DNA from: Malacoraja senta
Lineage: Eukaryota
Assembly: GCA_038087875.1 (NCBI GenBank)
Contig: CM075988.1
Span: 25,918,001-25,978,000 of the forward strand
DNA: 60,000 bases
Direction of reading: 5' to 3'
The stretch's first letter is position 1. The number at the start of each line of letters is the position of its first letter. The translations under genes and the position numbers were made by a program. Under the pieces are notes generated by a model. It did no database searches. It worked only from the letters and a program-made list of their open reading frames with translations, and was not told where the DNA came from. Positions 18,501 through 44,003 of the stretch are shown here, in pieces.

Positions 18501-21238
18501 ACCTGTTGATGACTGGCAAATTTTGACCAATTTCTTCCCCCCATCTCATTTACATCATTATTTCTTTTCATTTACAAAATTGTAACATTGAATGGTGTTA
18601 AGGGATTTGTGCTGACTGACTGGCTAGCTTCTTTCCTCTGCTCCCTTCAATACCTCAGGATGAAGAACCCTCACTTACGAGCAAAGCTGGCTGAGGTGCT
18701 TGAGGCTGTGATGCCTCACATGGAGCAGGTGCAGAATCCAATGATGAGTAGCATGTTCCACCGAGAGCGGGTCTTCGCCTCATTCCGACAGGCATACTAT
18801 CTCGCAGAAGCACTTATCAAAGTGTTTGTGGACATTGAATTCACAGGTATGTGTGAAATGTTGTAACAGATAAATGCTGAAGGGCTAGTATATAACTATA
18901 GTGATAGTGCTATACAACTATAGTGACCACATACTTTATACCATATACTTCATTGGCTACAAAATATCTGTTAACTTACATCTTGATGTATGAACATCAC
19001 ACTTCTCTCTACTTTCCAGAAAGTTGTTCGAGGGGAAAAATATTGTCCCTATTTATTGTTTTTCACCAGAGAGCATGGAATTTGTTTTTGCCCTGGACTG
19101 ACTCTACCATTTAATGAATCAGTGGCACGTTATTGTCACATGTACCGAGGTACAGTAAAACGCTTTGTTTTGCAGACAACCCGATAAAATCACAAACCAT
19201 ATATCATCAGGGCTATCTATTGGCTGCCCCTGCACGTGACAGCAAGTCCAGAGAATTTCTAAATAACAAACAATTTCTTGATATGAATGTAGTTTTATTG
19301 AGACCACTGTTGCTGACATTTTCTGCCTCCAGGTGATCCACATCAGTTTGAACAAAAATTTAACTACAGGCGACCTATGTATCCTATACTAAAATACATG
19401 TGGGGATATGAAAACTACAGGGAAAGCATAAAGGTTTGTCTTACTTTTAACGTATATTAAAGGTATTATTTCCTACACGTCCTCACTCTATATACATGCC
19501 TGGGAGGTCAGGACTTTCATATGAAGAAAGACTGGATAGACTCGGCTTGTACTTGCTAGAATTTAGAAGATTGAGGGGGGATCTTATAGAAACTTACAAA
19601 ATTCTTAAGGGGTTGGACAGGCTAGATGCAGGAAGATTGTTCCCGATGTTGGGGAAGTCCAGAACACGGGGTCACAGTTTAAGGATAAGGGGGAAGTCTT
19701 TTAGGACTGAGATGAGAAAAACATTTTTCACACAGAGTGGTGAATCTGTAATTCTCTGCCACAGAAGGTAGTTGAGGCCAGTTCATTGGCTATATTTAAG
19801 AGGGAGTTAGATGTGGCTAAAGGGGTCAGGGGGTAGGGAGAGAAGGCAGGTACAGGATACTGAGTTGGATGATCAGCCATGATCATATTGAATGGCGGTG
19901 CAGGCTCGAAGGGCCGAATGGCCTACTCCTGCACCTATTTTCTATGTTTCTATAAATAAATATACTCTTTGTAATCAGTCCATGGAAAGTATTTTAAAAG
20001 AGGTATATTTTATTCTCTGTGTCTACCTTCGATTTTCCAGCATCTGCAGTTCCTTCTTAAACAAATATCTTTTATTCTCGACAACAATATTTTCTTTTAA
20101 TATAATGATGGTAATGTAATAATCTGAACATGTGAATAAATGATTTTGTAGTTATTCATTGCTGGCCAGCCAGTTCCCCAGTCTTAATCAGATCCATAGT
20201 CCACAGGATACAGCAAGTTTAAAAGAAAGGGGAGGGGGTGATTAAATGAGAGTGAAGTAATGAGAATGGGGGGAGGGGTAGCAAAGTGATGATGATCATT
20301 TTGACTCCTTGGGTCTCATTACTAACTTTTGTTTGCAAATGTCAGATCAGAGGCTTCCTGTTGAAGTAAGTGTGGAAACTTTACAGGACAATAGTGGAAA
20401 TATATGAAGATTTTTTACGTTGGTGATTTTATGCTAGTGATGTAACAAACAGCCTGTTAAGTATTACTTTAAAGTTGTGTTTGTTGGCTTGGAGTCCTTG
20501 GGAAAGACTGTGTGCATGGTGTGGGAGATGGAACTGAGGGAAGATGTTCCTGGAGAGTGGCTGAGCTCTGATCTCCTGTTCCCAACTTTGAATGCTAAAA
20601 TGTGCCCAAAATGTATCCATCTATAGAAGGTGCAACTTCAGACAAAGCAGAGATTTTTTAGATGGTAATGTTGTATTTACAATTTAATATCTGGCAAACC
20701 AGGAAAAGATATTATTTTGCAATTGTCAAAAGCTTGTGATTTCATGCTGTAAGATACTTTGTAACTGAAGTGTATCTGCTGTTTTCTCTTGGCTTACAGA
20801 ATTTAGCTGACTATGCATTTGACAACTTGGAGGCAATGAACCCTCCACTTTTTCTCCGATTTCTCAATCTGCTCATCAATGATGCAATCTTTTTGTTGGA
20901 TGAAGCTATCCAGGTATCTTGTGGCAGAGTTCTTTTTGTTTTCATTTTAGTTTTTAAACATACTCTTCTGTTGTCTCCTTCAACAAAAGTCAGTTATACA
21001 ATAATTAATTTAGTTTTATATTTATCTTCCCACAACTCCTGAAAATACTGACTCATTGTCATGTACCAGAAGATCTGATTTACTTCTGGGATGTTTCCAG
21101 GCTAGGTGTCCTGAAGAAATAAGGAACCACAGATGCTGGTTTACTAAAAAATATAAAGTTCTGCGGTAACTCAGCAGGTCAGGCTGCATCTCTGGAGAAC
21201 ATGGGGAGGTGACATTTTGGGTTGAATCTGAAATGTCA

Positions 21239-21317
<79 letters not shown>

Positions 21318-24300
21318 TCCAAAGATGCTGCCTGACCCATTGAGTTAATCCAGCATTTCAAGTATTTTTTGTGTCCATCTCTCAGTTCTTTGTTTGAATG
21401 TCTTACTAGAGCATTACTGCTGAGACTAACTCTATTTCAGCAGGACATCCACTCAACAGTTTCAAACCAGGATCTCCCCAGCAGTGATCAGGAGAGGGAG
21501 CCCTTGCTAATTTTATTTTCCCCTCTCCCTATCTCAGGGACATTGTGGGCAGTGATTGATGTTGGGGGGGGGTTGCAAATCACTAAGAGCATTAGCAAAA
21601 AGTTGCACCTGGTGCATTTTGCTCCTGTAATACCACATGATATATATTTATCCTATAACCCAGTGGGTCAAGTGGGGTGATTATAAATATTTGCATTGCT
21701 GGCAGACTTTTCCTTTGAATTGACTATTCACTAGAAACTTGCATGCAATAGCAAAAGCTACCAGATGATAGGATAAACCTGGAATAATTATGTTTCTATC
21801 TCATTAAGCATGTTAGGTTTGGCCACAAATCTGTAAATTGTAATTTGAGATCTTTTATTCAATTTTATAGTATTTGAGCAAGATTAAGATTCAACAAATT
21901 GAGAAGGACCGAGGGGACTGGAATAATTTGGCTTCCGAAACTCGCAGGGAAAAAGAGGGTAACCTTCAGATGTTTGGGCAGTTGGCACGCTTCCACAACA
22001 TCATGTCCAACGAAACAATTGGAACGTTGGCCTTTCTCACTTCAGGTCAGTGAAATGCCATGTACAGTAAAATGGTGTCGGGGGTTATGGGGAGAAGGCA
22101 GGAGAATGGGGTTGAGAAGGAAAGCTAGATCAGCGATGATTGAATGGCGAAGTGGAATTGATGGGATGAATGGCCTAATTCTGCTCCTATCACTTACGAA
22201 CGTATGAAAAGAAGAATCGGGGAAGCATTGGTGTCTGATAGCTTTAAAAACTGCTGCTTGTGGACTTTAGGGAACACCAAATGGGGTTAATTCACTTCTT
22301 GTACTATTTCTATATTACTGCATAACAGAATTTCTTCCTCGAAGTAGCATTGCAGCAGGAACATAAGAATAGTTTAAAAGCATTCAGCCTATTCTGCCCT
22401 TTAATTAGATCATGGAAAATAGGTATCTGAACTCCTTTTACCTGCTTTAACTCATTTGATGCCCATATTCTATATTAATAGATCTACCAATACTATGTGT
22501 AGGAAAGCACTGCAGATGCTGGTTTAAATCGAAGGTAGACACAAAATGCTAGAGTAACTCAACAGGACAGGCAGCGTCTCTGGAGAGAAGGAATGGGTGA
22601 CGTTTTGGTTCGAGACCCTTCTCCAGAGTCTGGAGAAGTCCGATTCCAATTAATTATTTCCAGAAATGCTGCCTGTCCCAATGAGGTACTCCAGAATTTT
22701 GTGTCTACCAATACTATTATCCCCAAATTTGATTATCAGCCTGCATTGAATTAACTGAATTCAGGCAAGGCAGCAGGATGTTGCAAATGGCTGTTGTATC
22801 CTTGGGCTGCAGACAGGTGAAAACAAGTGGTTCTGTTCCTGGCCACTGTTTGGACACTCTTGTTGGATGAGATTGGAACTGAACTTGGCTGTGGAAGTGT
22901 TCCCAAGCAGTCAGTGCCAGTTGGACAAAACTGGTCAGCTTGGCGATCAGTGCCTCTCAAAATCCACTCCCAACAAGAGTGGAAAGAGACAAAAAATTGA
23001 AAGTTTTTTTTTTTTTAAACCTCATTCAATTGAAGGAATTTTGTCTGAAGAAGGGTCTCAGTTTATCAGTCTGAAGAAGGGTCTCGACCCGAAACGTCAC
23101 CCATTCCTTCTCTCCAGAGATGCTGCCTGTCCCACTGAGTTACTCCAGCTTTTTGTGCCTGTCTTCCTTCGATTTAAATTGGTTTAGTGACCTATTGTGC
23201 TTTTCTCTGGCAGAAATCAAGGCGTTGTGTGTGCATCCCATCCTTGCTGAGCGGATCATCTCCATGCTGAATTACTTCCTTCAACACTTAGTGGGACCTA
23301 AAATGGGTGCCCTCAAGGTCAAGGATTTCAGTGAATTTGACTTTAAGCCTCAACAACTGGTGTCTGACATTTGCACCATCTACTTGAACTTGGGGTAAGT
23401 GGCGACAGTTCAACGAAGTAAAATACCAAGAACCTGGTACCAAGAATCATATATTCCAATTTGATGCTTGATTACTAAAAGGCTGACAGATTTATGATAG
23501 CAAGGAATCCCATAAAATAGACATTGCGCACCCTGTTACAGTATCTTCTTGAGTCTCCTCAGATTGTTAGTCATTAGGATTCAAGATCAAGAAAAATAGA
23601 AAATAATATTACTTTTCCTTTTTCCCCCCATTTAGATTTCTGCTTTTAATCTTAAAGATTGTGGAGTCAGGGGATATGGGGAGAAGGCATGAACGGGGTA
23701 CTGATTGTAGATGATCAGCCATGATGACAGTGAATGGTGGTGCTGGCTCAAAGGGCTGAATGGCCTACTCCTGCCCCTATTGTCTATTGTCTATTTGGCA
23801 ATTGCTGGTTTTGATTTTCTGTGCACTATTTTAATGGACCTGTGCATCATTTTAACACACAATCTTTACTCCAGTCATTTTAAATTAGACGGGCAGGGAT
23901 TTCAGGTTGTGTAGAGATTCCTGTGTTATAAAGAACACTGAAAACACCTGCAACTGTGCAGGTGTGTGATCTGTAAAGAGTGGTTTGTAACTAGCCAGTG
24001 GGGGGTATGGGTAGAAGCAAAGCAGAATGACTGTATTCAAACAAATGATCTTCATTAGAATCTTCAACAACAGCTGGTATGCATGGCATTGATGGGATTT
24101 TCGATTACCACCTTTATTTTGAGTATGATGGGATGTCCTGCTTTTAAATTCATTAGTTTGCATTTCTTAATCCATGTCTGAATTTAGTTTACATTATTTC
24201 TCAAGCATGCAGTTACAATATGTATTTAACTTTCCCTTGATATTTGAGGTGTAAATGTATTTGGTTGCCTTAATGTTTAATTGGTGACTCTCCACTTCTC

Positions 24301-25395
24301 TTCCTCCATCAGAGTGAAAGAGGTTTTCTGTGCCACCGTGCCAAAGGATGGGCGCTCCTATTCTCCTATGTTATTTGCACAGACAGTGAGGGTATTGAAA
24401 AAGATCAATAAGCCTGGCAACGTGATCATTGCATTCAGTGAACTGGCTGACAAAATAAAGGTAGGTATACTGTGTTATCAACTTGGCATGTATTTACATA
24501 ACTTCATTAACAGTGAAATAAAGATTTTTTTTAAATCTTGAAGGCGATAATATGTCGAGTAGATGCAGAGCCTTGGGGATCCTCGTTGTCATTCGAATAA
24601 CATAATAGCGATAGAACATGCCATGGTGCAATAACGTCAGGTCTTAGACATTGGCTCTCATGCATTCGTAGTTAACTACTGATACAGGAAACAGAACATG
24701 GTATTCCGTACGATAGCTCCAAGTAACACTATATTCTACATGGTTTCATTGTACTTATTAATGGATGTGTTGGTGTGGGGATCGCTGGTTGGCGCGGACT
24801 CAGCTCTGTTTCCGCATTGTATCTCTAAACTGAAACTTTCCACATGTGCTGCCTGACTTGCTAAGTGTTTGCAGCATTTTCTGTTATTTCACTCTTGGCT
24901 CCAAGGTCTTCAATCAGCCACTCCAATATTGAAAAGAAAATGGAGGGCTGTTTGCTGTGGTACTAACTTGACCAGCAATAACGTTTGTTCTGCCCATCAG
25001 TCTCTTGCAGACCTGCAGCAACAAGAAGAGGAGACATTTGTCGATGCACCAGATGAATTCCTCGACCCTATAATGAGCACGCTGATGGTAGATCCAGTTA
25101 TACTGCCCTCCTCCCGGGTCACAGTGGATAGGTCAACCATAGCCAGGCACCTCCTCAGGTAAGGCATTTTCATCTGCACAGCCCACAGTTGATGACTGAA
25201 TTTTAAAGAATGGATTTTGATTTCCAATAACTTGATATTCCATTTTTTATTTTTTGCTTTAGTGACCAAACTGACCCTTTCAACCGTAGCCCGCTCACAA
25301 TGGATCAGATCAAAGCAAACTTGGAAATAAGAGAGAAAATTCAGCAATGGCTGACGGAAAGAAAACGACAGAAGGATCAAAATGGGCAGACATAG
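333..25395 (+). CDS. UBE4A: Ubiquitin conjugation factor E4 A (U-box E3/E4 ligase), spliced CDS, 5'-partial; 18 coding exons in the window, about 1030 aa
   Basis: The exons join in frame across GT-AG introns and translate to a UBE4A-like protein ([62 protein letters not shown]-box [48 protein letters not shown]). Stop TAG at 25393-25395. Confidence 0.97.
1633..1745 (+). CDS. UBE4A: UBE4A coding exon
   Basis: ag|GTGAC...CAG|gtat; [37 protein letters not shown]. Confidence 0.95.
4447..4599 (+). CDS. UBE4A: UBE4A coding exon
   Basis: [15 protein letters not shown]...[24 protein letters not shown]; bounded by AG/GT. Confidence 0.95.
4665..4997 (+). mobile_element. CR1-type LINE 3' fragment
   Basis: ORF2 tail (aggaatctgaggggtaacttt...cacacaaagggtggtg) plus 3' UTR ending gaagggcctgtttcc. 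Confidence 0.85.
5296..5455 (+). CDS. UBE4A: UBE4A coding exon
   Basis: [16 protein letters not shown]...[27 protein letters not shown]; donor gtaagt at 5456. Confidence 0.93.
5587..5905 (-). mobile_element. tRNA-derived SINE (HE1/V-SINE-like), near full length
   Basis: tRNA-like head, central gtttgcacattctcc core, 3' end similar to local CR1 3' ends, (ctaaa)n tail. Confidence 0.82.
7499..7701 (+). CDS. UBE4A: UBE4A coding exon
   Basis: [12 protein letters not shown]...[13 protein letters not shown]...[16 protein letters not shown]; donor gtaag. Confidence 0.95.
7877..8505 (-). mobile_element. L2-type LINE 3' fragment
   Basis: [51 protein letters not shown]; (ttgac)n tail. Confidence 0.88.
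8778..9056 (-). mobile_element. tRNA-derived SINE (HE1-like)
   Basis: Same layout as 5587..5905. Confidence 0.8.
9741..9932 (+). CDS. UBE4A: UBE4A coding exon
   Basis: [23 protein letters not shown]...[21 protein letters not shown]. Confidence 0.96.
10076..10432. mobile_element. hAT (Charlie-like) MITE
   Basis: TIRs CAGGGGTGGGGAACCT / AGGTTTCCCCACCCCTG; perfect 8-bp TSD GTGTAGAT (10068-10075, 10433-10440). Confidence 0.9.
12068..12401 (+). CDS. UBE4A: UBE4A coding exon
   Basis: FMVQFHDK...[21 protein letters not shown]...LLTFNPTYC...NVHMK. Confidence 0.96.
12558..13347 (-). mobile_element. GC-rich non-autonomous retroelement-like repeat with a hairpin and short-repeat 3' tail
   Basis: Abrupt GC-rich insert in an AT-rich intron; hairpin 12587-12609 next to a (gatacaat)n tail; internal duplication; related sequence at about 55062-55515. 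Confidence 0.6.
14514..14640 (+). CDS. UBE4A: UBE4A coding exon
   Basis: [41 protein letters not shown]; bounded by AG/GT. Confidence 0.95.
15782..16089 (+). CDS. UBE4A: UBE4A coding exon
   Basis: [24 protein letters not shown]...EPQMLQNC...LSHIP. Confidence 0.96.
16911..17177. mobile_element. Palindromic Penelope-end-derived mini-element. Representative of a family with copies near 2845, 3865, 6155, 6565, 13935, 15035, 21118, 22497, 23043, 27732, 30255, 31534, 31746, 37373, 37614, 41978, 42820, 50120, 50660, 51170, 53635, 54145, 55520, 56373 and 58351.
   Basis: Shared motif ctgaagaagggtctcgacccgaaacgtcacc...agatgctgcctg(t/a)cccgctgagttactccagca...ccagcatctgcagttcc, in either or both orientations, matching the 3' end of the element at 35219..36648. 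Confidence 0.85.
17785..17917 (+). CDS. UBE4A: UBE4A coding exon
   Basis: [43 protein letters not shown]. Confidence 0.96.
18659..18846 (+). CDS. UBE4A: UBE4A coding exon
   Basis: [20 protein letters not shown]...[15 protein letters not shown]. Confidence 0.96.
19333..19433 (+). CDS. UBE4A: UBE4A coding exon
   Basis: [33 protein letters not shown]. Confidence 0.96.
19496..19952 (+). mobile_element. CR1-type LINE 3' fragment
   Basis: [37 protein letters not shown]; (tttctatg)n tail. Confidence 0.9.
20800..20913 (+). CDS. UBE4A: UBE4A coding exon
   Basis: [38 protein letters not shown]. Confidence 0.96.
21241..21314. repeat. (TA)n microsatellite inside a palindromic mini-element
   Basis: Seen directly. 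Confidence 0.95.
21871..22045 (+). CDS. UBE4A: UBE4A coding exon
   Basis: [17 protein letters not shown]...[26 protein letters not shown]. Confidence 0.96.
23214..23394 (+). CDS. UBE4A: UBE4A coding exon
   Basis: [59 protein letters not shown]. Confidence 0.96.
24313..24460 (+). CDS. UBE4A: UBE4A coding exon
   Basis: [49 protein letters not shown]. Confidence 0.95.
25001..25158 (+). CDS. UBE4A: UBE4A coding exon (U-box)
   Basis: [52 protein letters not shown]. Confidence 0.96.
25263..25395 (+). CDS. UBE4A: UBE4A last coding exon
   Basis: [43 protein letters not shown]. Confidence 0.96.
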
Positions 25396-26989
25396 AATGA
25401 TAAAGCAAAAAAAAACAAATGAAGTGTGCAGTCGTGGGACATTTACTGCTGTCTATGACTGCCTGTGTACAAGGACTATCCAGGGACTTAATGGCATATC
25501 TTAATCCATCTTCACAACTCTTGTTCAGTACGAATCAATTTAACGGAATGTTCTTGTAGCTGTGCAAGAGTTTGGCCCAGCACAGTTTCACTTTTGCTCT
25601 TAAGCAACCGACTGCCAGCATTAGCAAGTAGTGTTCGATGTTTTCCTGTTGAGTTGGCTGACTGGAAATCAGTACTTGGAGAAGGCCTGAAACATAAGTC
25701 AAATGAGTGAGGAGTTCATAGCTAACAAAATGGCTGTTTGAGTTGGTGTATTTGGTGACCTTGAAATTATGCTGTGCAGTATTTATCTTCAAGCATTAAT
25801 TATGCTTCTATGAAATTCTTTTTCCAGCTGTTTCAATGGGCCTGTTGACTTATTCTATGAGTTGGAGAGTCCAATGAAATAGCAGAAAAAGGAGTTTGAT
25901 GGTTACTGCAGCATAACATCCTTCCCAGGCCTGTGTTTTTATTTCTCTTAATTTATCAGAATCACATCTTTTAAGACATTGACTGGATGCTTACTTATCC
26001 AGCTAGAAAAGCTTTATAGGGGTGTAAAGCGGGAAGCAACTAATATAATGCACCAGCATTGGTGAACTTGGTCTTTATAATATGCATGCCTCAAGACTAA
26101 TACCATTGTACATTTTCTGTAAAATTAACCTACAGTTGAAGGTGGATAACTTCCGACATGACGCTTAAGTTGTTTGAAAAAACTCGACTGGTACTGCATC
26201 TTGCATGCCAGGATTTCCATTAAGGAACATCTAAAAATCCTTTTTATGATGTCCATTTGTGTGGTTGAATCCCTCCAAACGTTGGCGTGTTCCAATGCAG
26301 CTGTTAGTACTGCACGCTGGAACCCAACCCCATAACGCCTGTAAAACAATGTGTTTAGTGTACAGAAACAAATCAATTATAATTGCAAGTCAACAGATAC
26401 TTAATATAATTTGCAGAGGCTCAATAACTTTGTTTAAACTAACTCTGCTCCCAGACACATGAGCCCAATGAAAACTGAATTTCTGGAATTCAGCCTGTCC
26501 CTTCCCATTGGATTCCCTGTTGGAAAGTGAAGTTTGGTACAAAAACCCTCCAGCTCCTGAATTGTCTTCGGCCGCTTAATAACGCTGTTTCCATTCTGTG
26601 ATGCTTTCTCACCCTAAGACCACAACATAAAGGCTCAAGGCTTGTTGTGCCTGTTAGTGAATTTCAACAGTTTTCTAACCACAAATACAGTTCATGTGCA
26701 AGATTTTTTTTCTTTGCAGATTTCTGTGCTATCTCTTTGCTCTTCCAGCTCATTGTACTGAAAGATTGTGCTATCATTGACTGCTTATTTCCAAGTCGTC
26801 AGTTGACTCTGCCCCATTTCATCAATGAGGAAGGGAGTTAGTTCTGCAAGTTTATACTGCAATAAGTGAACATCACCTAGATTATACTGGGTTAATGCAA
26901 AGAATGCCATCAGAGGTATGGATGCCCAACTTTATGGAAACGTTACCGGTCAATGTCAGGTTTATTGGTTGTTGACATTTTTTCCCCCA

Positions 26990-29921: not shown

Positions 29922-31913
29922 GCGGATGGAAATAATCCATGGGCCCTATATGAACTAATTCTGCCCGCTGTTCGGGCCAACGTTTACCTGCCACTCGCTG
30001 TCTAAAATGTTCATTGTTGTTTGTGGAGACGACAACACTCCCATTCCATCCACTGATAGATGCTCTCTTGCGATGAAAGGACATTTCTTCGGTGATTTTC
30101 TCAACTCCTGGCAGTCTGTTGGTTGATGCATCGCCCTGCGAACCCTGTCAGGTAGATGAGTCTAGCAGTGAGGCAACATTGTCACCGCGTTTGGGTGAAT
30201 CTCCGTGAACTACAGGGACGCGCCACAGCTTCGCCACCCGCGTGGAGCCACAGATACAGAGAGCTGGAGACAGTAACTCCGCGGGTCAGGCAGCATCTCT
30301 GGAGAAAAGCAATAGGTGACGTTTCGGGTCGAGACCCTTTGTCTATCGTCACCTAACCATGTTCCAGAGATACTGTTACTCCCGCAATTTGTGTCTTTCC
30401 TTGGTAAACCAGCATCTGCAGTTCCTTGTTTCCCAGCCATTGTACCTGTAAGGAGTGTTTCAGGCGGTACTGTACATTGTAGACCCCAGGTCGCCAACAT
30501 ACTCCACATGGTTATTGGTGGATGGAGATTTAAGGACGAGATGTCAGCCACACGCCGCTAGTCTCGAGGACCCCCACACGTTAAAGTGACCGCGGATGTC
30601 GACTCCAACGGAAACATGACCCATGCCGTGCCTTGCCTCCACACTTGCTGCCACCAGCAATGTTTTATTTGCTCCAGATTCCTGTATCTGCAGGCTCGTG
30701 TCCCCAAAGCAAAATCTTCCCGGAATGGGGGTCGTGGGATCATTGAGGTTTAGAACCAGGCTCAGCGAGTCCACGCTGACCATCAACCCCCCCCCCCCCC
30801 CCCCCCCCCCGCGCTATTGACTCATCAACTCTCCCAACACTCGCTGAGAAGTGAATCGGAAGCGGGGTAAACAATGAGCCAAGCTCTTACGGGCAAAGAT
30901 ACTAGAGCGGAGCTCTATGATCTTTGCTTCCGGGCACATTGGGCACCGGGACGTATGGCAGTGAGCAGCGGGAGAGGGCGATGGGAGCCTCTGTCGGAGT
31001 GGCGCTGGAGGATGGCGAGTGTTTACTGAGATGCCGTGATCGGCAGGGACACCCAGGGGTGGAGAGCGACATAGCGCGTCTGAAAAAAGGTTTTGTTGAA
31101 CTGAATTTGGTAAGGACTTTAAGCATATTTATTTTTAAAAATCGGCTGCACAAATATGATCAGAAGTCGGAATAGCCGCGCACGAAACCCAATTGAAAGC
31201 CCCCTAATTTACACTTTATATTGACCGTTGTCATCCTGTAAAAGAATAGCAGTGTTGGGGATTTAAGTGGAATTTAGTGAACTTGGGCACCTTCATCAAA
31301 TGTGTGGAAGCTTTCCCTACCCGGTGCGGGACGGCTAGGTAACAGGAATAATTCATTTTTACTTTTGAAATAATTGTTAACCTGCTACTTTGATGTGCCG
31401 TTTAAAATATAATTAATATCATTTAAATTGGTTATTGCTACATGGTTTAGGTACCATTTACTTGCCCCTAGTGTGCAATGATTTAATACTGTGTGAAAGT
31501 TGTGTCTAGGAACAATTACTTGCATACAATTAGAAGGTAGACAAAAATGCTGGAGGAACTCAGCGGGTCAGGCAGCATCTATGGAGCGAAGGAGTAGGTG
31601 ACGTTTCGGGTCGAGACCCTTCTTCAGACTGAGGGCATACAATTAGGGCATCTTTGCTATAAAGCAGCTCATGTAGTCAATATTATAACCATTACATGGA
31701 ATGAGGTACAGTCAGACATTGAGGTTTGTGTCCAGGAACAGTGTCCAGTCTGAAGAGGGGTTCGGCCCGAAACGTCACCTATTTCCTTCGCTCCATAGAT
31801 GCTGCTGCACCCGCTGAGTTTCTCCGGCATTTTTGTCTACCTTCCAGGAACAATTGCCTGGATACAATCATCAATAGTTAATGTTATAACCAATACCTGG
31901 GGACAATTAGGGC

Positions 31914-32316
31914 AATAACCAACCTGACCTCCCGGTGGCTCAGCACTTCAACTCCCCCTCCCATTCCGTATCTGACCTCTCTGTCCTGGGTCTCCTCCAT
32001 GGCCACAGCGAGCAACACCGTAAATTGGAGGAAATGCACCTCATATTCCGCTTGGGCAGTCTACATCCTGGGGGCTTGAACATTGAATTCTCCCAACTCT
32101 GCTAGCCCTTGCTGTCCCCTCCCCTTCATCAGCCCTCTGGTTGTCTCCTCCCACCCCCTAGCCCTCGGGCTCCTCCTCCGCCTTTTTTCCTTTTTTCCTT
32201 TCTTCTCCCCACCCCCTATCAGTCTGAAGAAGGGTTTCGGCCCGAAACGTTGCCTATTTCCTTCGCTCCATAGATGCTGCTGCACCCGCTGAGTTTCTCC
32301 AGCACTTTTGTGTACC
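31914..32316 (+). mobile_element. 3' fragment of the same Penelope-like family
   Basis: Near-identical to about 36223-36610; retains 11 nt deleted in that copy. Confidence 0.9.
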
Positions 32317-32546
32317 GACATTAGGGCATCTTTGCTACATTACCTTTAGTCAGAGGGTAGTTAATCTGTGGAATTCATTGCTACAGAGGGCTGTGGAGGC
32401 CGAGACAGTGGGTATTTTTAAGGCAGAGATGTCTTAGGGTGTCGAGGGTTATGGGGAGATGGCAGGAAAAGGGGATTTAGATTCAAGAGAGTTTATTGTC
32501 ATGTGTCCCAGATAGGACAATGAAATTCTTGCTTTGCTTCAGCACA

Positions 32547-32773
32547 ACAGAATATAGTAGGCATGACTACAGAATATAAGTAGGCATGAATACAGAATAT
32601 AGTAGGCATGAATACAGAATATAGTAGGCATGAATACAGAATATAGTAGGCATGAATACAGAATATAGTAGGCATGAATACAGAATATAGTAGGCATGAA
32701 TACAGAATATAGTAGGCATGAATACAGAATATAGTAGGCATGAATACAGAATATACTAGGCATGACTACAGAA
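32547..32773. repeat. 22-bp minisatellite, 10 units (ACAGAATATAGTAGGCATGAAT)
   Basis: Seen directly. Confidence 0.95.
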
Positions 32774-33041: not shown

Positions 33042-33105
33042 ATGGCGGAGGCGGCGAAGCGGCTGGTGCGGAGCGTGGTGGCGGGGGCGCCGGTACTGGC
33101 CAGCG
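33042..33105 (+). CDS. ATP5MG: ATP5MG coding exon 1
   Basis: gagATGG Kozak context in a CpG island; donor G|gtaat at 33106; phase compatible with exon 2. Confidence 0.85.
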
Positions 33106-36100
33106 GTAATGTGGGGTGGGGTGGGGTGGGGGGTGGTGCAGCCCCGGGCCCGGCCCGGCTCGGCTCCCAGAGCGGGGGATGCGGCAGGAAACGCCGCGGC
33201 TCACCGGGCCCTCGACAGCACTAGGCCGGAGCCCATGGCAACCAGGCCGGGAGCGCGCACAGGGGGGGGGGGTAGGGTCACTCTCTCCCCGGGAGCGCGC
33301 ACAGGGGGGGGGGTAGGGTCACTCTCTCCCCGGGAGCGCGCACAGGGGGGGGGTAGGGTCACTCTCTCCCCGGGAGCGCGCACAGGGGGGGGGGGGTAGG
33401 GTCACTCTCTCCCCGGGAGCGCGCACAGGGGGGGGGGTAGGGTCACTCTCTCCCCGGGAGCGCGCACAGGGGGGGGGGTAGGGTCACCCTCTCCTCGGGA
33501 GCGCGCACAGGGGAGTCAGCGGTCACTCTCTCCCCGGGAGCGCGCACAAGGGGGGCAACGGTCACCCTCTCCCCGGGAGCGCGCACGGGGGGTGGCAGCG
33601 GTCACCCTCTCCTCGGGAGCGCGCACAGGGGAGTCAGCGGTCACTCTCTCCCCGGGAGCGCGCACAAGGGGGGCAACGGTCACCCTCTCCCCGGGAGCGC
33701 GCACAGGGGGGGGGGCAGCGGTCACCCCCCCCCCCCCGGACCGCGACTCTCCCTGACACTGACCCCCGGGCCTCAGTGCTCCCCACAGCCGGCTCCCGTG
33801 TGACAGCGCCCGGCGCCACCCCTGCCCTCTGGCCACCTCTTCTAGTAAACGTGGCTGACTTCGACTACCTCTGTCACTTTGGCCCTTGTTTGTCATTGTC
33901 ACACAGCACCGAAACATGCCGTTCAGCCAACCTGTCCATGCGGACCAAGATGCCCCATCTAAGCTCGTTGGATTTGCCCTCGTTCGGCCCGTCCCTCTGA
34001 ACCTTTCCTTTCCATTGTCCAAATAACGATTGGCGTGGCTCCTTGCAAAATGGATCAGAGTAATTGAGCCTTTTTAATAGTGTGAAAAATGTGTAAACTG
34101 GCAAGGTAGTAATCTGAATGTTGATGTTCGTTAATTGAAATAGAACACGGGTCTGTGTTTTGCGTTACCGTGCAGCTGCTAGAGTAAAGTCTTTATTATC
34201 TGTGGGGTTTGAACATACTGCATGTTGAGAGGGTTGTCAAATTAGACCTCTAACTCCTAGCCAGGGGCATGCGAGAGAGTTAGATTTAGCTCTTGGGGCT
34301 AAGGAATCAAGGGATATGGGGGAAAAAGCCGGATTTTGGAGGATCAGCCATGAACATATTGAATGGCAGTGCTGGCTCGAAGGGCCGAATGGCCTACTCC
34401 ACCTATTTTCTATATTTCTATGCCCTTGAAGGCCATGATTAAGATAAGAGTTTGCTACTCCATAGGGATGGATGGGGATAAACTACACCTTGCAAGATAG
34501 CTGTGGGATTGTTGCTGAGGTGTTGGCTCCTTATAACCTATGTGGACTCACTGTCCGTTTTGCTGAACACTTGTGCTCAGTCCATCTGCTAAGGCCTAAC
34601 TGGATCTCTAGGTCAATAACCATTTAAATTCCTTGTTCCCATACTGCTCTTTCTGTCCTGTGCCGCCTCAGTGTGAGGCCACATGCAAACTAGAGGAACA
34701 TCACCTTGTATTCTGGGTAGTTTACATACCAATGGTATGAACATTAAATTCTCTAAGTTTAGGTAGCCTCAAATCATCCCACATTGGGCAGAATGACCTT
34801 GTGTCCTTTGGTTTTCAGAAAATCAAGTGGCGTTCTCATTGAAATGTACAGGTTTCTATGGAGGAGGGGGATTGATAGAATATATTGCTGCGAGAATGTT
34901 TACCAAGTATAGGAATCCAGATTTGGAGTGCAAGGTTTCACTACGAGGAGTTGGCCACAAGACTGCAGTGTGACTGGAATTTCTTTTCAAGGTTGTGAAT
35001 TATTTGGATTTTATGTTTCCTTGCTCATTGAATATTTATTTGATATATACATAGACTTTGGATTTCGTGGGTTATCAGAATCTGGCAGCAAAATGGAGTT
35101 GTGAGTAAAGATTAAATCGGCTGTAATTTTTATTGAAAAATGGAGCAAAATTGGGAGGATTCGAAGAAGGATGTTATGATCAATTTAGACAAGTAGCGAC
35201 ATAAACATGCTATATTATAAGGCGTCCAAATACAAGGCGTAGCTATGGGCACACGCATGGGCCCCAGCTACGCCTGCCTCTTTGTCGGGTACGTAGAACA
35301 ATCCTTGTTCAATACGTACCAGGGCCCCATCTCCGACCTCTACCTCAGCTACATCGATGACTGTTTTGGTGCCACCTCCTGCACCCACACACAACTGACT
35401 GACTTCATCCGCTTCACCACCAACTTCCATCCGGCACTCAAATACACCTGGACCATTTCTGACAACTTCCCTACCATTCCTTGACCTCACTATCTCCATC
35501 GCAGGTGATAGACTTCATACCGACATCCACTACAAACCTACCGACTCCCATGGCTATCTGGACTACACTTCTTCCCACCCTGCTTCCTGTAAGGACTCCA
35601 TCCCCCACTCCCAATTCCTCCGTCTACGCCGCATCTGCTCCCAGGATGAGGCGTTCCACACCAGGGCATCCGAAATGTCCTCATTCTTCAGGGAACGGGG
35701 GTTCCCCTCCTCCACCATAGATGAGGCTCGCACCAGGGTCTCTGCCATACCCCGCAACACTGCTCTCTCTCCCCATCCCCCCACTCACAACAAGGGCAGA
35801 GTCCCCCTAGTCCTCACCTTTCACCCCACCAGCCGTCACATACAACAAGTGATCCTCCATCAGTTTCGCCACCTCCAACGTGACCCCACCACTCGCCACA
35901 TCTTCCCATCTCCCTCCATGTCTGCCTTCCGCAAAGACCGCTCCCTCCGTAACTCCCTTGTCAATTCTTCCCTTCCCTCCCGTACCACCCCCTCCCCGGG
36001 TACTTTCCCTTGCAACCGCAAGAGATGCAACACTTGTCCCTTCACCTCCCCCCTCGATTCCATTCAAGGACCCAAGCAGTCGTTCCTGGTGCGACAGAGA

Positions 36101-38184
36101 TTCACCTGCATCTCCTCCAACCTCATCTATTGCATCCGCTGCTCTGGATGTCAGCTGATCTACATCGGTGAGACCAAGCGGAGGCTTGGCGATCGTTTCG
36201 CCGAACTCCTCCGGTCGGTCCGCAATAACCTACCTGACTCAGCACTTCAACTCCCCCTCCCATTCCGTATCTGACCTCTCTGTCCTGGGTCTCCTCCATG
36301 GCCACAGCGAGCAACACCGGAAATTGGAGGAAATGCACCTCATATTCCGCTTGGGCAGTCTACATCCTGGGGGCATGAACATTGAATTCTCCCAACTCTG
36401 CTAGCCCTTGCTGTCCCCTCCCCTTCATCAGCCCTCTGGTTGGTTGTCTCCTCCCATCCCCCAGCCCTCGGGCTCCTCCTCCGCCTTTTTCCTTTCTTCT
36501 CCCCACCCCCTATCAGTCTGAAGAAGGGTTTCGGCCCGAAACGTTGCCTATTTCCTTCGCTCCATAGATGCTGCTGCACCCGCTGAGTTTCTCCAGCATT
36601 TTTGTGTACCTTCTATTTTCCAGCATCTGCAGTTCCTTCTTTAACACAATGCTATATTATGTAATTATTTGATTATGTCTTGACCAGAGGGAGGTTAATA
36701 GCTGCAGTAAGTGTTCATCTTTGGCTGTTCATGTATTTTTTTAAACCATGAGTGTAGAAGCTGGCAAATCATGTTGCAGTTATATAAGATGTTGGTGAGG
36801 TCGCATTTAGAGTATTGTGTTCAGTTCTGGGCACCATGTTATAGGAACAATGTCATCAAGTTGGAAAGGGTACAGAGAAGATTTGAGGATGTTGCCAGGA
36901 CTCGAGGGTCTGAGCTAAAGGGAGGCATGGAGCAGGTTGGACTTGGAGGGCAGCAACATGAGGGGTGATCTTAGAGGTGTATAAAATCATATTTTATATG
37001 AGAGGAATAGATCGGGTACATGCACAGAGTCTCTTGCCCAGAGTAGGGGAATCGAGAACCAGAGGACATAGGTTTAAGGTGAAGGGTGAAAGATTTAATA
37101 GGAATCTGAGGGGCAACTTTTTCACACAAAGGGTGGTGGGTGTATGGGATGAGCTGTCAGAGGAGGTAGTTGAGGCAAATACTATTGCAATGTTTTAGAA
37201 ACATTTAGGCAGGTACATGTTTAGAATATGATATAACAGGATATGTTTAAAAGGATATGAGCTAAACGCAGGCAGATGGGACTAGTGTAGATGAGACACA
37301 TTGGTCGGAGTAGGCAGGTTGTGCCAAAGGGCCTGATTCCACGCTCTATGACTATGTGTCGCTAAGATTTAAAAGACACAAATTGCCAGAGTAACTCAGC
37401 GGGTCAGGCAGCATCTCTGGAGAACGTGGATAGCAACGTTTCAGGTTCGGAGTGCAAAAGAAATGCATTTATGACAAAAAAGTGGCAATTTGTTGAGAAA
37501 AGCACCATAGATTATTGAATCATAAGTATGCTGCATATGTTCTTTGCTTTGTGAACTTGTGTAAAGAGAAGAGTCACGGGTTGAAGTGAAGGATTGAGCT
37601 CTTTTTTGTGCCAAGGTAGACACAAAATGCTGGAGTAATTCAGTGGGACAGGCAGCATCTCTGGAGAGAAGGAATGGGTGTGAAGAAGGGTCTTGACCCG
37701 AAACGACTTCTCTCCAGAGATGCTGCCTGTCCTGCTGAGTTACTCCAGCATTTTGAGTATTTTTTGTGCACTGGAAGGGTAGTCTGCCACCAGGATCCTT
37801 GGGAAATGTCTAAAAGAGGAATTATTGAATTCTCCACTTTGGTTGGTTTGTAGTTTTTCATTGGAAAATTCTTCCTAATGTTTTATTTTGGTTATCCTTA
37901 ACCTTTCCTTTTAGATAATTGCTGTGCTGTATTTTTCCATGTTTGAGTGTATCTATTTGTTACCGTGTTTCACTGGTGGTGTCATTATATTCTTACCAAA
38001 CTGGTTGCATGTTTTCTTTGCAGCAACCCTGCAGTACTCAAGGCCTCGTCTAGCGACCTTTTGGAAATATGCTCGAGTAGAGCTGTCTCCTCCAACTCCT
38101 GGTGAAATCCCAGTGGCCGTTGAAAGCTTCAAGGGCCTTGTTGCATCATTCAAGGCTGGGAGTTACAAACAAATTACTGTCAAG
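33042..38184 (+). CDS. ATP5MG: ATP synthase membrane subunit g (ATP5L), exons 1-2 (33042..33105, 38024..38184); 3'-partial
   Basis: The spliced product MAEAAKRLVRSVVAGAPVLASATLQYSRPRLATFWKYARVELSPPTPGEIPVAVESFKGLVASFKAGSYKQITVK matches subunit g (YSxPRLATFWxYAxVELxPPTPxEIP). Intron 1 is phase 1, GT-AG. Confidence 0.93.
33248..33726. repeat. G-rich minisatellite, about 40-bp unit, 12 units, in ATP5MG intron 1
   Basis: Unit CGGGAGCGCGCACA(G)nTAGGGTCACTCTCTCCC and variants. Confidence 0.95.
34545..34770 (+). mobile_element. Older, degenerate Penelope-like endonuclease fragment
   Basis: Decayed similarity to 36190-36400 (cgttttgctgaacac, tcccatactg, caaactagaggaacatcacctt, ggtatgaacatt). Confidence 0.6.
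35219..36648 (+). mobile_element. Penelope-like retroelement, 5'-truncated (RT C-terminus, GIY-YIG endonuclease, 3' pLTR-like end), frameshifted
   Basis: GVAMGTRMGPSYACLFVG...YIDD RT motifs; CNRKRCNTC; NLIYCIRC...IYIGETKRRLGDRF GIY-YIG. 12-bp TSD ATGCTATATTAT at 35207-35218 and 36649-36660. Confidence 0.92.
36750..37355 (+). mobile_element. CR1-type LINE 3' fragment
   Basis: [51 protein letters not shown]. Confidence 0.88.
38024..38184 (+). CDS. ATP5MG: ATP5MG coding exon 2
   Basis: tttctttgcag| ... AAG|gtaac; TLQYSRPRLATFWKYARVELSPPTPGEIP. Confidence 0.95.
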
Positions 38185-41604: not shown

Positions 41605-42480
41605 AAATAAAGTCAAATCGAGTTTGTCATATCCACGTATGGTATCTTGCATGCAGAAGCATCCTAGACAAATACGAACAATTAATTTCCATAAATTTAT
41701 AATGACATCAAATTACAAGAAATTCTGCAAGACAATAACAATAGCATCAGTGCAAAACACAATTAGAATAAAAAAGTCCATGGTATTGAAGAGGTCATCT
41801 GTTGTCGAGGTCGGATGTGTGGGCTGTTTAAAAAATCTGATAGTGGTACGAAAAGGAATGATCTCAAAGCAGGTTGTGTGTGACGTAAGCATTCTGCACA
41901 TTGTGATAGTTGATGTTAGCAATGAGAAGAGGATGATGGAGATACTTGATGATAGATGCCATTACCTTAATGTGTAGGAGACCCTTCTTCAGACTGAAGA
42001 AGTCTGATTCCCATTCCTTCTCTCCAGAGATGCTGCCTGTCCCGCTGAGTTACTCCAGCATTTTCTGCCATTTAAGGCAGTACTGCATGGAGATGCTTTT
42101 GATGGTGGGGAGAGCTGTGCCCATGGTGGATCAGGCCAAGTCCCTGTAGCATCCTGTGTCCCTGTGCGTTTGAATTGGCGTACCAGGCCATGATACAACC
42201 AGTCAGGATACTTTCTACAGTGCATCTGTCGAAATTTGTCAGAGTATTCGGTGATATGCCAAATCTTTTTAAACTTCTAAAAAGTAGAAAGACTGGCATG
42301 CTGTTTTTGTGATTTTGTCTGTGTGCTGGGCCCAGAACAGGTCATCCAAGATGTTCATGCCAAGGAATTTAAAGTTGCTATTTCCACTGCCGATCCAACA
42401 ATGGAAACTGGCATGTGGTCTCCCGACTTCCCCTTTCTGAAATCAATGACCCTTGGTCCTGTTGAGGTAGAGGTTGTTGT
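41605..42480 (-). mobile_element. Rex1/Babar-type LINE 3' fragment, interrupted by a Penelope-derived mini-element
   Basis: RSLKRFGISPNTLTNFDRCTVESILTGCIMAWY. Confidence 0.75.
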
Positions 42481-44003
42481 GGCTCCTAACCGAGTGTGTT
42501 GATCATGTATACTTACATTTACTATCTTGAATTATTTACACAGTGAGTTTATTTTAAGTTCAGGCCCACTTGTTTTATGGAGTGACCAATTTAACCTGCT
42601 GGTGTTGTATTCCAGCTTTTATACATGGCCACTTAAGAACATTTTACTGGATATCTGAATTGGTGCATGTTGTAACTGCCTTCAGGCAATTATATTATTA
42701 TGAGAATTAAAACCATTGCAAATTCATGTAAGTACTAACAAATAATTTTCAAGGAAAATTTACAAGACAGAACAAGGACATCTTGTCTTCTGGTTTATAA
42801 AGAACTATCTAACCTAATCAGTCTGAAGAAGGGTCTTGGCCTGAAACATCACCCATTCCTTCTCTCCAGAGATGCTGCCTGTCCCGCTGAGTAACTCCAG
42901 CAATTTGTGTCTACCTTCGATTTAAACCAGCATCTGCTGTTCTTTCTTACATATCTAACCTAATCCCAGTTCTTGATCCAATTCCCTTGGTTCTTCAAAA
43001 GCATCCAGCCATTTTAAAATGATGAGCAAGTTTCTGCCTCCTACCAGCCTTAACATGTGTGGGGTTCTGACCCCTGCTAGCTTCTTGTTTTAAATAAACT
43101 CTTCCCTCAACCAATTAATTTGAATCTTTGATATCGCAGCTAAAGGAAATGTGCCCCTGTTTATTCTTCGAAGAAACTCCAAAGAAAACACCCATAGCAT
43201 ATCCTATATTTTTTCATGGTTATGGGTTTGCAGTCCTCAGATCTCTGCAGCCTCTCTCTGATGGAATCAAACCTTTCTCGGAATGTGGGGTTTAGAACTC
43301 TACATATACTTATGTTATGGTGTAACAAGCATTGAACACAATTCTGCATCTAGGTTTTAGTTTCACCGAATAAAGGAAAATGTTCTATATGCTTCTTTAA
43401 TTGCAGTTATCAATTGATCCTGATTATCTTTTCAGCATCAGTAACCATACACTCTATGCTTCTCATTATCCTCATTCATTCCCTTGTTTTGTTGCTACTC
43501 TCTAAGTGTATTACTTACTTTTCTTTGGATTGTATTCTGTTTGACACTTCTGTGTTCATCTAACCAGATGATGTAACTTCTGCTGAAGCTGACTGCTTTC
43601 CTCTTCCCTGCCAACCATATGGCCAAGTTTTATATCATCTGCAAACCGTATATGTAATGTGTCTCCCCTACATTTGTGGTGCCCACAAACTCTTTAAATT
43701 ATTTTGTTTTGGTAAATTAGCAAGGTAGCAATTTAGGTCCTGGCCTGTGCCATCAGTTGTACTCCCCCGGGAGTCAATACTGTTATAATTGGTCTTGGCT
43801 TCCTTCCCATTGTCTTTTGTGAGAGAAGGGATCATATGATAAATTCCTCTAATAGTAAAGGAAGGTGTGTGTACTTGATACTTTGGTGTTTTCCCCATCT
43901 GCCACCGCTGTGTAGGCTGTATATTATTTACAAAATATTCTTGCTCTTGAAGAAATAGCTGAGAGTCTGAAGATTACTGATGCTCATGGACAACTGCACT
44001 ATA

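What the first reader, a model, noticed from the sequence alone, without database searches (positions are those of the whole stretch)
36514..36550. Minimal hammerhead-ribozyme core at the 3' end of the Penelope-like element
Seen: CTGAAGA-A-GGGT(TTCG)GCCC-GAAA-CGTT at 36518-36545, which is CUGANGA, a 4-bp stem II, GAAA and an NUH triplet. The same core is at 32224. Variants ending GAAACGTC are at 23071, 31750 and 31599-31627 (minus strand); the one at 23071 has an alternative stem II, GGGT(CTCG)ACCC, that keeps its pairing. Established: Penelope-like elements carry minimal type I hammerheads whose palindromic, loopless stem III (here AACGTT or ACGT) implies dimeric cleavage, and one extra residue after A9 is tolerated in some natural hammerheads. 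Inference: this is a self-cleaving RNA that processes element transcripts. Stem I is weak (2-3 bp) in these copies, so activity is uncertain.
Basis: partly seen in the sequence, partly recalled or inferred. Interest (0 to 1): 0.7.

Follow-up and report, generated by a model that had tools for sequence, protein, structure and literature searches.

The report
Hammerhead ribozyme in fish Penelope retrotransposon
This is the small hammerhead-ribozyme motif that Penelope-type jumping genes are known to carry, here in a dead copy likely from a shark- or ray-like fish; most short copies nearby start just before the motif and keep it uncut, so cutting is likely weak and likely not needed for the element to spread.

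Summary
The motif lies about 115 nt after the stop of a 5'-truncated, broken Neptune-type Penelope-like element (PLE; 35219-36648, 12-bp target duplication), sense in intron 1 of an ATP5MG-like gene. In 25 of 67 related PLE loci a minimal hammerhead sits 93-132 nt after the ORF (0 antisense, 0.0 shuffled), and stems I and II covary. It is therefore a real member of the known PLE minimal hammerheads (Cervera 2014). Activity is unshown and looks weak: stem I has 2 bp, a rival hairpin is 3-10 kcal/mol more stable in silico, and no RNA ends pile up at the cut site.

Copies end at two points about 36 nt apart (the PLE tail). Four public runs show the same ends. The likely reading is run-off cDNA from the 5' end of uncut transcripts, so cleavage probably does not make the transposition template. 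New member of a known kind; interest 0.3.

The parts
36518..36545 (+). Minimal type I hammerhead core: CUGAAGA, extra A, 4-bp stem II, GAAA, palindromic CG, UU; predicted cut between 36545 and 36546
36516..36547 (+). Extent including the 2-bp stem I (G36516-C36547, U36517.G36546)
36513..36519 (+). TCAGTCT, fits the initiator consensus YYANWYY (consensus recalled); inferred transcription start near A36515; the common 5' end of solo copies maps to 36513-36516
   Evidence: start site inferred, not mapped
36611..36648 (+). PLE 'tail' between the two 3' ends (36610-12 and 36646-48)
35219..36648 (+). 5'-truncated, frameshifted PLE copy: RT C-terminal part (YIDD), thumb, CX4CxxC linker, GIY-YIG-type endonuclease, stop 36402-36404, 3' pLTR
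35207..35218 (+). 12-bp target-site duplication, left copy (right copy 36649-36660)
31920..32319 (+). Second ORF-end-bearing copy with the identical core at 32224; ends at the short 3' end; 5' limit approximate
31746..31845 (+). Solo pLTR copy, core at 31750, 10-nt duplication-like flank
31528..31632 (-). Solo inverted copy, core at 31627, 11-nt duplication-like flank
23066..23175 (+). Solo copy with intact core at 23071, sense in an intron of a UBE4A-like gene, about 40 nt before a splice acceptor
42820..42952 (+). Full solo copy (hammerhead start to tail end) with a 14-bp target duplication; core at 42823

Best explanation
The motif is a minimal type I hammerhead in the pseudo-LTR of a Penelope-like retrotransposon; it is likely a weak, conditional ribozyme that would cut after GUU/GUC only as a dimer or with help from the element's protein, and the RNA that gets copied into DNA is likely the uncut form. 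Shown: the core sequence, its conserved place after the ORF, stem covariation across families, solo copies that begin at -7..+3 of C3, and two 3' ends about 36 nt apart. Inferred: the pLTR promoter starts transcription about 3 nt before C3 (near A36515). The PLE reverse transcriptase would start inside the RNA, about 95 or 130 nt downstream (the two tail ends). On a transcript's first pLTR it would run off the 5' end and give the 95-135-bp solo and head-to-head inverted copies; on a read-through or tandem RNA it would continue into the ORF. Cleavage, where it happens, would remove a capped leader of about 31 nt or split multimers, so it would act as a regulatory or clean-up step and not as the step that makes the template. 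The copy at 36518 itself is a dead insertion and probably inert.
For: 25 of 67 related loci carry a strict sense motif 93-132 nt after the ORF end, 0 of 67 antisense, 0.0 expected from shuffles. On 18 sequences, 7 of 10 pairs change on both sides, covariation score 0.56 against 0.18 shuffled (0/500) and at most 0.10 for slid controls. 23 of 38 window hits start at model positions 1-8; only 2 of these 23 have PLE sequence upstream. Four runs show loose ends at 36513-36516 with unrelated flanks (agreement 0.33-0.45) and at 36610-12 and 36646; depth over 36526-36627 is about 7-20 times the ORF bins. One related clade has TATAAA starting 37-41 nt before C3 (10 of 25 loci; background 1 of 350 windows) and its short copies start at -3, -4, -10, -10, -17, -47. 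Anole PLE: internal RT start, protein-assisted cleavage, uncut RNA is the main substrate (PMC11167929).
Against: No cleavage or start-site data exist for this family. Stem I is only 2 bp with a wobble, and stem II pairing probability is 0.00-0.04 in three window copies against at least 0.89 in 11 of 19 relatives. The strict descriptor demands the core, so core invariance there is built in; an unbiased count in one clade shows U4C in 26 of 50 copies. The 10 TATA loci are one clade and not independent; the window element has no TATA. 15 of 38 window hits start further in (model 15-58), and one (37680-) starts within about 1 nt of the predicted cut. depth is not a copy number.
Confidence: 0.62

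Rival explanations
1. One reading: the ribozyme cuts tandem transcripts into unit-length (possibly circularised) RNAs that are the transposition template.
For: Core and stems are conserved across distant families. Proposed in PMC4209133. A religated circle would also keep the core intact in cDNA.
Against: A circle has no end at -3, so it does not explain the sharp 5' boundary upstream of the cut. Only 1 of 36 ORF-less hits starts at the cut. No begin/end pile-up in two RNA runs (weak, see Tried and rejected for limits). Dispensable in vitro in the anole element.
Confidence: 0.15
2. In this lineage the ribozyme is vestigial; the sequence is kept as an internal promoter (initiator TCAGT plus ACGT near +27..+30, like the Penelope DPE) or as a protein-binding site.
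For: 2-bp stem I and a dominant rival hairpin. Core not better kept than downstream sequence in window copies. D. virilis Penelope has an internal promoter with DPE RGACGTGY (PMC2377424). Intact cores are tolerated sense in host introns.
Against: All core positions and stem II pairs are intact in the youngest copies. 2-bp helix I occurs in listed natural PLE hammerheads. Neutral decay of dead copies predicts the result either way. A zebra-shark-labelled protein that reads through this region (P0002...SLMKGLRPKRQ) is compatible with a change only at the free N7 position (back-translation, inferred).
Confidence: 0.13
3. The short copies are an independent SINE-like non-autonomous family with their own master genes, so their 5' end reflects a one-time truncation and says nothing about the transcription start of the autonomous element.
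For: 41994 and 22629 share the same head-to-head junction and internal deletion, so some short structures were amplified as units. Short copies far outnumber ORF copies.
Against: The same boundary is seen in young and old subfamilies and in a distant clade with a TATA box at the matching distance. Solo copy 31750 carries the diagnostic bases of the ORF-bearing subfamily. This rival can hold together with the best explanation.
Confidence: 0.25
4. The boundary is a 3' splice site (pyrimidine tract plus CAG ending at 36516), like the D. virilis Penelope intron that ends at helix I.
For: The sequence 36470-36516 looks like an acceptor; precedent in PMC4209133.
Against: Spliced copies should share an upstream exon, but loose ends at 36513-36516 have no consensus (agreement 0.33-0.45). 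No AG precedes C3 in the relatives. No RNA joints among the 15 rows shown (626 not shown).
Confidence: 0.07

Closest known systems
[quoted passage not shown]
   Same: CUGANGA, one extra base after A9, G10.1-C11.1, GAAA, palindromic CG, NUH, position in the pLTR, many solo genomic copies, opposite-strand pairs.
   Different: Helix I is 2 bp with a wobble (mostly 3-5 bp in their Fig. S3, though 2-bp cases are listed). No cartilaginous fish appears in the table and alignment text that I saw.
PAc, Poseidon PLE of Anolis carolinensis (Frangieh et al. 2024, PMC11167929)
   Same: Hammerhead roughly 100 nt upstream of internal RT start sites, 30-40-nt tail, no RNA-seq ends at the cut site.
   Different: PAc is Penelope/Poseidon clade with the ORF starting in stem II; this element has the CX2-5CxxC linker of Neptune/Nematis, and its ORF start is not in the window. 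The parts of that paper I read do not discuss solo copies ending at a start site.
Non-LTR retrozymes (Li, Clavereau, Pollet 2026 preprint, 10.64898/2026.07.22.740005)
   Same: pLTR-derived, hammerhead-bearing short elements; reported in one chondrichthyan genome.
   Different: Retrozymes are tandem arrays; the copies here are solo or head-to-head inverted, with no tandem array of this unit.
Solo and inverted pLTRs of Adineta vaga and D. virilis Penelope (PMC3846280, PMC2377424)
   Same: Inverted 5' pLTRs, tail, target duplications, promoter inside the pLTR.
   Different: Here solo copies outnumber ORF copies several-fold and share a sharp 5' end at the ribozyme; in D. virilis the start site is about 125 nt upstream of the core with an intron between.

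Membership tests
PLE minimal type I hammerhead | CUGANGA and GAAA boxes, NUH | tested here: met
   CUGAAGA, GAAA, GUU
PLE minimal type I hammerhead | Extra base between A9 and 10.1; G10.1-C11.1 pair | tested here: met
   A36525; G36526-C36537
PLE minimal type I hammerhead | Loopless palindromic 15.2-16.2 | tested here: met
   ACGT; C-G in 17 of 18 aligned sequences
PLE minimal type I hammerhead | Short helix I closing the core | tested here: inconclusive
   2 bp only in the window; 3-6 bp in 18 of 19 relatives; first two pairs are paired in 18 of 18 and covary
PLE minimal type I hammerhead | Located in the pLTR, sense to the ORF | tested here: met
   about 115 nt after the stop; 93-132 nt in 25 of 67 relatives
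PLE minimal type I hammerhead | Self-cleavage as dimer or protein-assisted | not testable with these tools
   needs an in vitro assay; one search shows no end pile-up but cannot decide
Canonical type I hammerhead (Rfam models) | 6-bp helix I with loop-loop tertiary contact; Rfam match | tested here: not met
   no hammerhead family among 8 matches at E<=5; helix I 2 bp
EN+ Penelope-like element | RT followed by C-terminal GIY-YIG endonuclease | tested here: met
   62% identical to P0001, which hits RVT_1 and GIY-YIG; the window pieces themselves gave no Pfam hit
EN+ Penelope-like element | 30-40-nt tail, inverted 5' copies, target duplication | tested here: met
   two 3' ends about 36 nt apart, 9 head-to-head pairs, 12-bp duplication
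Neptune (or Nematis) clade | CX2-5CxxC linker between RT and EN | tested here: met
   C-X4-C-X2-C; definition from PMC8557442
Neptune (or Nematis) clade | RT phylogeny separating Neptune from Nematis | not tested
   no named reference set was available
Non-LTR retrozyme | Tandem array with a hammerhead in each unit | tested here: not met
   none of the 8 tandem-repeat rows is this unit

The most novel reading that the evidence does not exclude
In Neptune-type PLEs the promoter fires a few bases before the hammerhead, and internal RT initiation turns each fresh transcript into a strong-stop-like cDNA of 95-135 nt that integrates alone; this by-product has become a very dense short repeat in cartilaginous fish (about 38 hits in 60 kb). 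The ribozyme would exist to cut off that capped leader and limit these abortive events, and the weakened 2-bp stem I in this lineage would explain why the solos flooded the genome.
Probability: 0.2. Interest if true: 0.6.

Novelty: new member of a known kind. Interest (0 to 1): 0.3.

Why it matters
The ribozyme itself is a known feature of Penelope-like elements, so its presence here is expected. What these ribozymes do is still open (PMC8557442). This family offers a natural read-out: many genomic copies record where reverse transcription started and stopped, and they stop just upstream of an uncut hammerhead. If a whole-genome census and start-site mapping confirm this, it would extend the in vitro anole result (uncut RNA is the template) to a second PLE clade in vivo, and explain the origin of an abundant short repeat.

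Tried and rejected
Rfam scan: no hammerhead family; the 8 weak matches are below gathering scores, and mir-9186 at 37639-37741 is the inverted pair of this repeat. No own genome is held, so no genome-wide census was possible. A degenerate DNA pattern gave 0 hits in viral and prokaryote collections; protein scans of viral contigs gave no relative. Sequencing-run search: no RNA holder listed. Read begin/end pile-ups: none in two poly(A)/oligo-dT runs; these are fragmented libraries from other organisms than the best DNA holder, only 5-6% was read, and reads over the repeat are strand-balanced, so they are probably host transcripts; this neither shows nor excludes cleavage. Core-versus-flank rows for 36512-36560 were not among the 40 of 480 differences shown. 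L085 looked full-length but is two truncated copies; no full-length element was found, so the ORF start relative to the ribozyme is unknown. Earlier scan findings: none. Lunse et al. (PMC5785218) is not held; it is cited only through a review. Literature searches for this motif or for run-off solos in sharks or skates found no such description; Repbase, Dfam and subscription papers were not searchable, and bioRxiv supplements are closed, so absence is not shown.

Full report
Observation. The sequence at 36518-36545 reads as stated: CTGAAGA, one extra A, GGGT-TTCG-GCCC, GAAA, CG, TT. A spaced pattern occurs 5 times against 0.06 expected, but these are copies of one repeat. Rfam has no hammerhead match, as expected for a form without stem III. 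Stem I is 2 bp in all six intact-core copies, followed by an A.C mismatch. The 23071 variant of stem II is a one-sided U.G to U-A change.

The element. The motif lies about 115 nt after the stop (36402-36404) of a broken ORF holding the RT end (YIDD), thumb, a C-X4-C-X2-C linker and a GIY-YIG-type nuclease. The window pieces gave no Pfam hit, but the closest homologues (59-62% identity, labelled Rhincodon, Stegostoma, Chiloscyllium) include P0001, which hits RVT_1 and GIY-YIG. The linker marks the Neptune or Nematis clade (PMC8557442, passages); I did not separate the two. A 12-bp duplication at 35207-35218 and 36649-36660 bounds the copy to 35219-36648. It is 5'-truncated and frameshifted, so it is dead. 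It sits sense in intron 1 of an ATP5MG-like gene (exon 1 from 33042, exon 2 near 38025), downstream of a UBE4A-like gene (132 of 168 ORFs were scanned; gene names recalled from the Pfam domains). A cartilaginous-fish host is inferred from the homologue labels.

Is it a real hammerhead motif? I fetched 98 loci encoding relatives (animal contigs inside metagenomes and MAGs, hosts unnamed, probably invertebrates). Of the 67 with a located nuclease end and at least 300 nt downstream, 25 carry a strict minimal hammerhead 93-132 nt after the ORF end on the sense strand, 0 on the antisense strand, and 0.0 are expected from shuffles. In an alignment of 4 window copies and 14 of those 25 relatives, 7 of 10 pairs change on both sides, the covariation score is 0.56 against 0.18 for shuffles (0 of 500) and at most 0.10 for slid partners. 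The descriptor required the core and some pairing, so that part is circular; the fixed position, the strand and the different stem sequences are not. Many of the 42 'misses' hold a homologous motif with changes. In one clade 26 of 50 copies carry U4C, a change reported to lower but not abolish activity in a viroid (PMC3088659, passage). The motif fits the consensus for metazoan PLE minimal hammerheads, already reported in fish, coelacanth, frog and reptiles (PMC4209133, parts 1-2 of 4 and supplement parts 1-2 of 3).

Is it active? Not shown. ViennaRNA prefers a hairpin between the GAAGG of the core and the downstream CCUUC; the hammerhead-like fold is 3.4-10.5 kcal/mol less stable over six copies and four lengths. 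Relatives show a similar gap (median 5.4), but stem II forms with probability of at least 0.89 in 11 of 19 relatives and 0.00-0.04 in the three window copies tested. Among 23 window copies only 6 have an intact core, and core positions are kept at 87% against 84% downstream (p=0.24); neutral decay of dead copies predicts this either way. Intact cores lie sense in introns of two host genes (36518, 23071), which argues against efficient monomer cleavage, weakly. Published data agree: no monomer activity and low dimer activity; protein-assisted cleavage that is dispensable for insertion in the anole element (PMC11167929, parts 1-2 of 4; figures not visible, supplement search empty).

What the copies record. 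A profile of the repeat finds 41 hits in the window (38 at E<1e-6; 0 in the reversed control). 23 of the 38 start at model positions 1-8. Only 2 of these have PLE sequence upstream; the upstream matches among the others appear to come from neighbouring inverted partners (by inspection). In those 21, homology to the ORF-bearing copy ends at -7..+3 of C3, about 30 nt upstream of the predicted cut. The other 15 start at model positions 15-58; one (37680, minus) starts within about 1 nt of the cut. 3' ends group near model 90-102 and at or beyond 118-120; duplication-like flanks of at least 9 nt occur in 3 of 22 copies against 1 of 462 mismatched pairs, and nine pairs are head-to-head. Laying two RNA runs and two contig sets at 80% identity gave depth about 7-20 times higher over 36526-36627 than over the ORF, loose ends before 36513-36516 with no shared flank, loose ends before 36512 with pyrimidine-rich (UTR-like) flank, and loose ends after 36610-12 and 36646 (only the best-supported rows are shown; depth is not copy number). 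The two 3' ends match the PLE tail between two internal RT start sites. No read ends pile up at the cut; the libraries cannot decide this.

Mechanism, inferred. TCAGTCT at 36513-36519 fits the initiator consensus (recalled). In one related clade TATAAA starts 37-41 nt before C3 (10 of 25 loci, all one clade; 1 of 350 background windows), which would put the start about 7-10 nt before C3, and short copies in that clade begin at -3, -4, -10, -10, -17 and -47. PLE promoters are known to lie in the pLTR (PMC2377424 and PMC3846280, passages). The simplest reading is that transcripts start just before the core, RT starts about 95 or 130 nt in, and runs off the uncut 5' end to give solo and inverted copies; ORF-bearing copies need read-through RNA. 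Cleavage would then trim a leader or split multimers and would not define the template. Rivals are the unit-length or circular template model, a vestigial ribozyme kept as promoter, an independent SINE-like master (supported by the shared junction at 41994 and 22629) and a splice acceptor.

Novelty. PLE minimal hammerheads are known, and hammerhead retrozymes were reported in one chondrichthyan genome (10.64898/2026.07.22.740005, part 1 of 5 and passages; supplements closed). Reviews were seen as passages only (PMC6765202; PMC6155905). My searches found no account of this family or of solo copies that stop at a start site before the ribozyme, but repeat databases and closed journals were not searchable. 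Verdict: new member of a known kind, interest 0.3; the run-off reading with a limiting role for the ribozyme has probability about 0.2 and would merit 0.6.

Noticed in passing
window 12026-25400 (+) and 33042-38183 (+): Exons of a UBE4A-like gene (Ufd2P_core, U-box) followed by an ATP synthase subunit g (ATP5MG-like) gene; names recalled from Pfam domains.
   Followed up: partly
window 31521-32337: Composite insertion: inverted solo, direct solo and ORF-end copy, with an 18-bp word repeated at 31642 and 32320 and pieces of local host sequence repeated between the units; suggests template jumps or capture of target DNA.
   Followed up: partly
window 41980-42090 and 22507-22708: Two loci share the same head-to-head hairpin junction at the hammerhead 5' end and the same internal deletion; at 22627/22629 one base change is mirrored in both arms.
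   Followed up: partly
window 23043-23070; L085 560-640: Short stutters of the first 10-17 nt of the hammerhead just upstream of a solo copy, as if RT re-primed at the template's 5' end.
   Followed up: no
L014, L029, L051, L058, L064, L081-L083, L087-L091 and others: A whole PLE subfamily carries U4C in the hammerhead core (26 of 50 copies in that clade) and still amplified.
   Followed up: partly
L008-type loci, 70 nt upstream of C3: CCAAT-like box and TATAAA (about -37) directly upstream of the hammerhead: a compact Pol II promoter inside the pLTR.
   Followed up: partly
L081-L098: Animal PLE sequences lie inside contigs of three prokaryote MAGs in the genome collection, most likely host contamination.
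   Followed up: no
window 35200-36420, run X21: First-mate strand bias of about 3:1 over much of the ORF, which in most stranded libraries would mean mostly antisense RNA; library chemistry is not known.
   Followed up: no
window 36548-36640: Long predicted hairpin downstream of the ribozyme that spans both 3' ends (z=-2.4 for 36515-36648); a candidate RT-binding or initiation structure.
   Followed up: partly
window 32547-32773 and 33247-33727: A 22-bp and a 39-41-bp minisatellite flank exon 1 of the ATP5MG-like gene.
   Followed up: no
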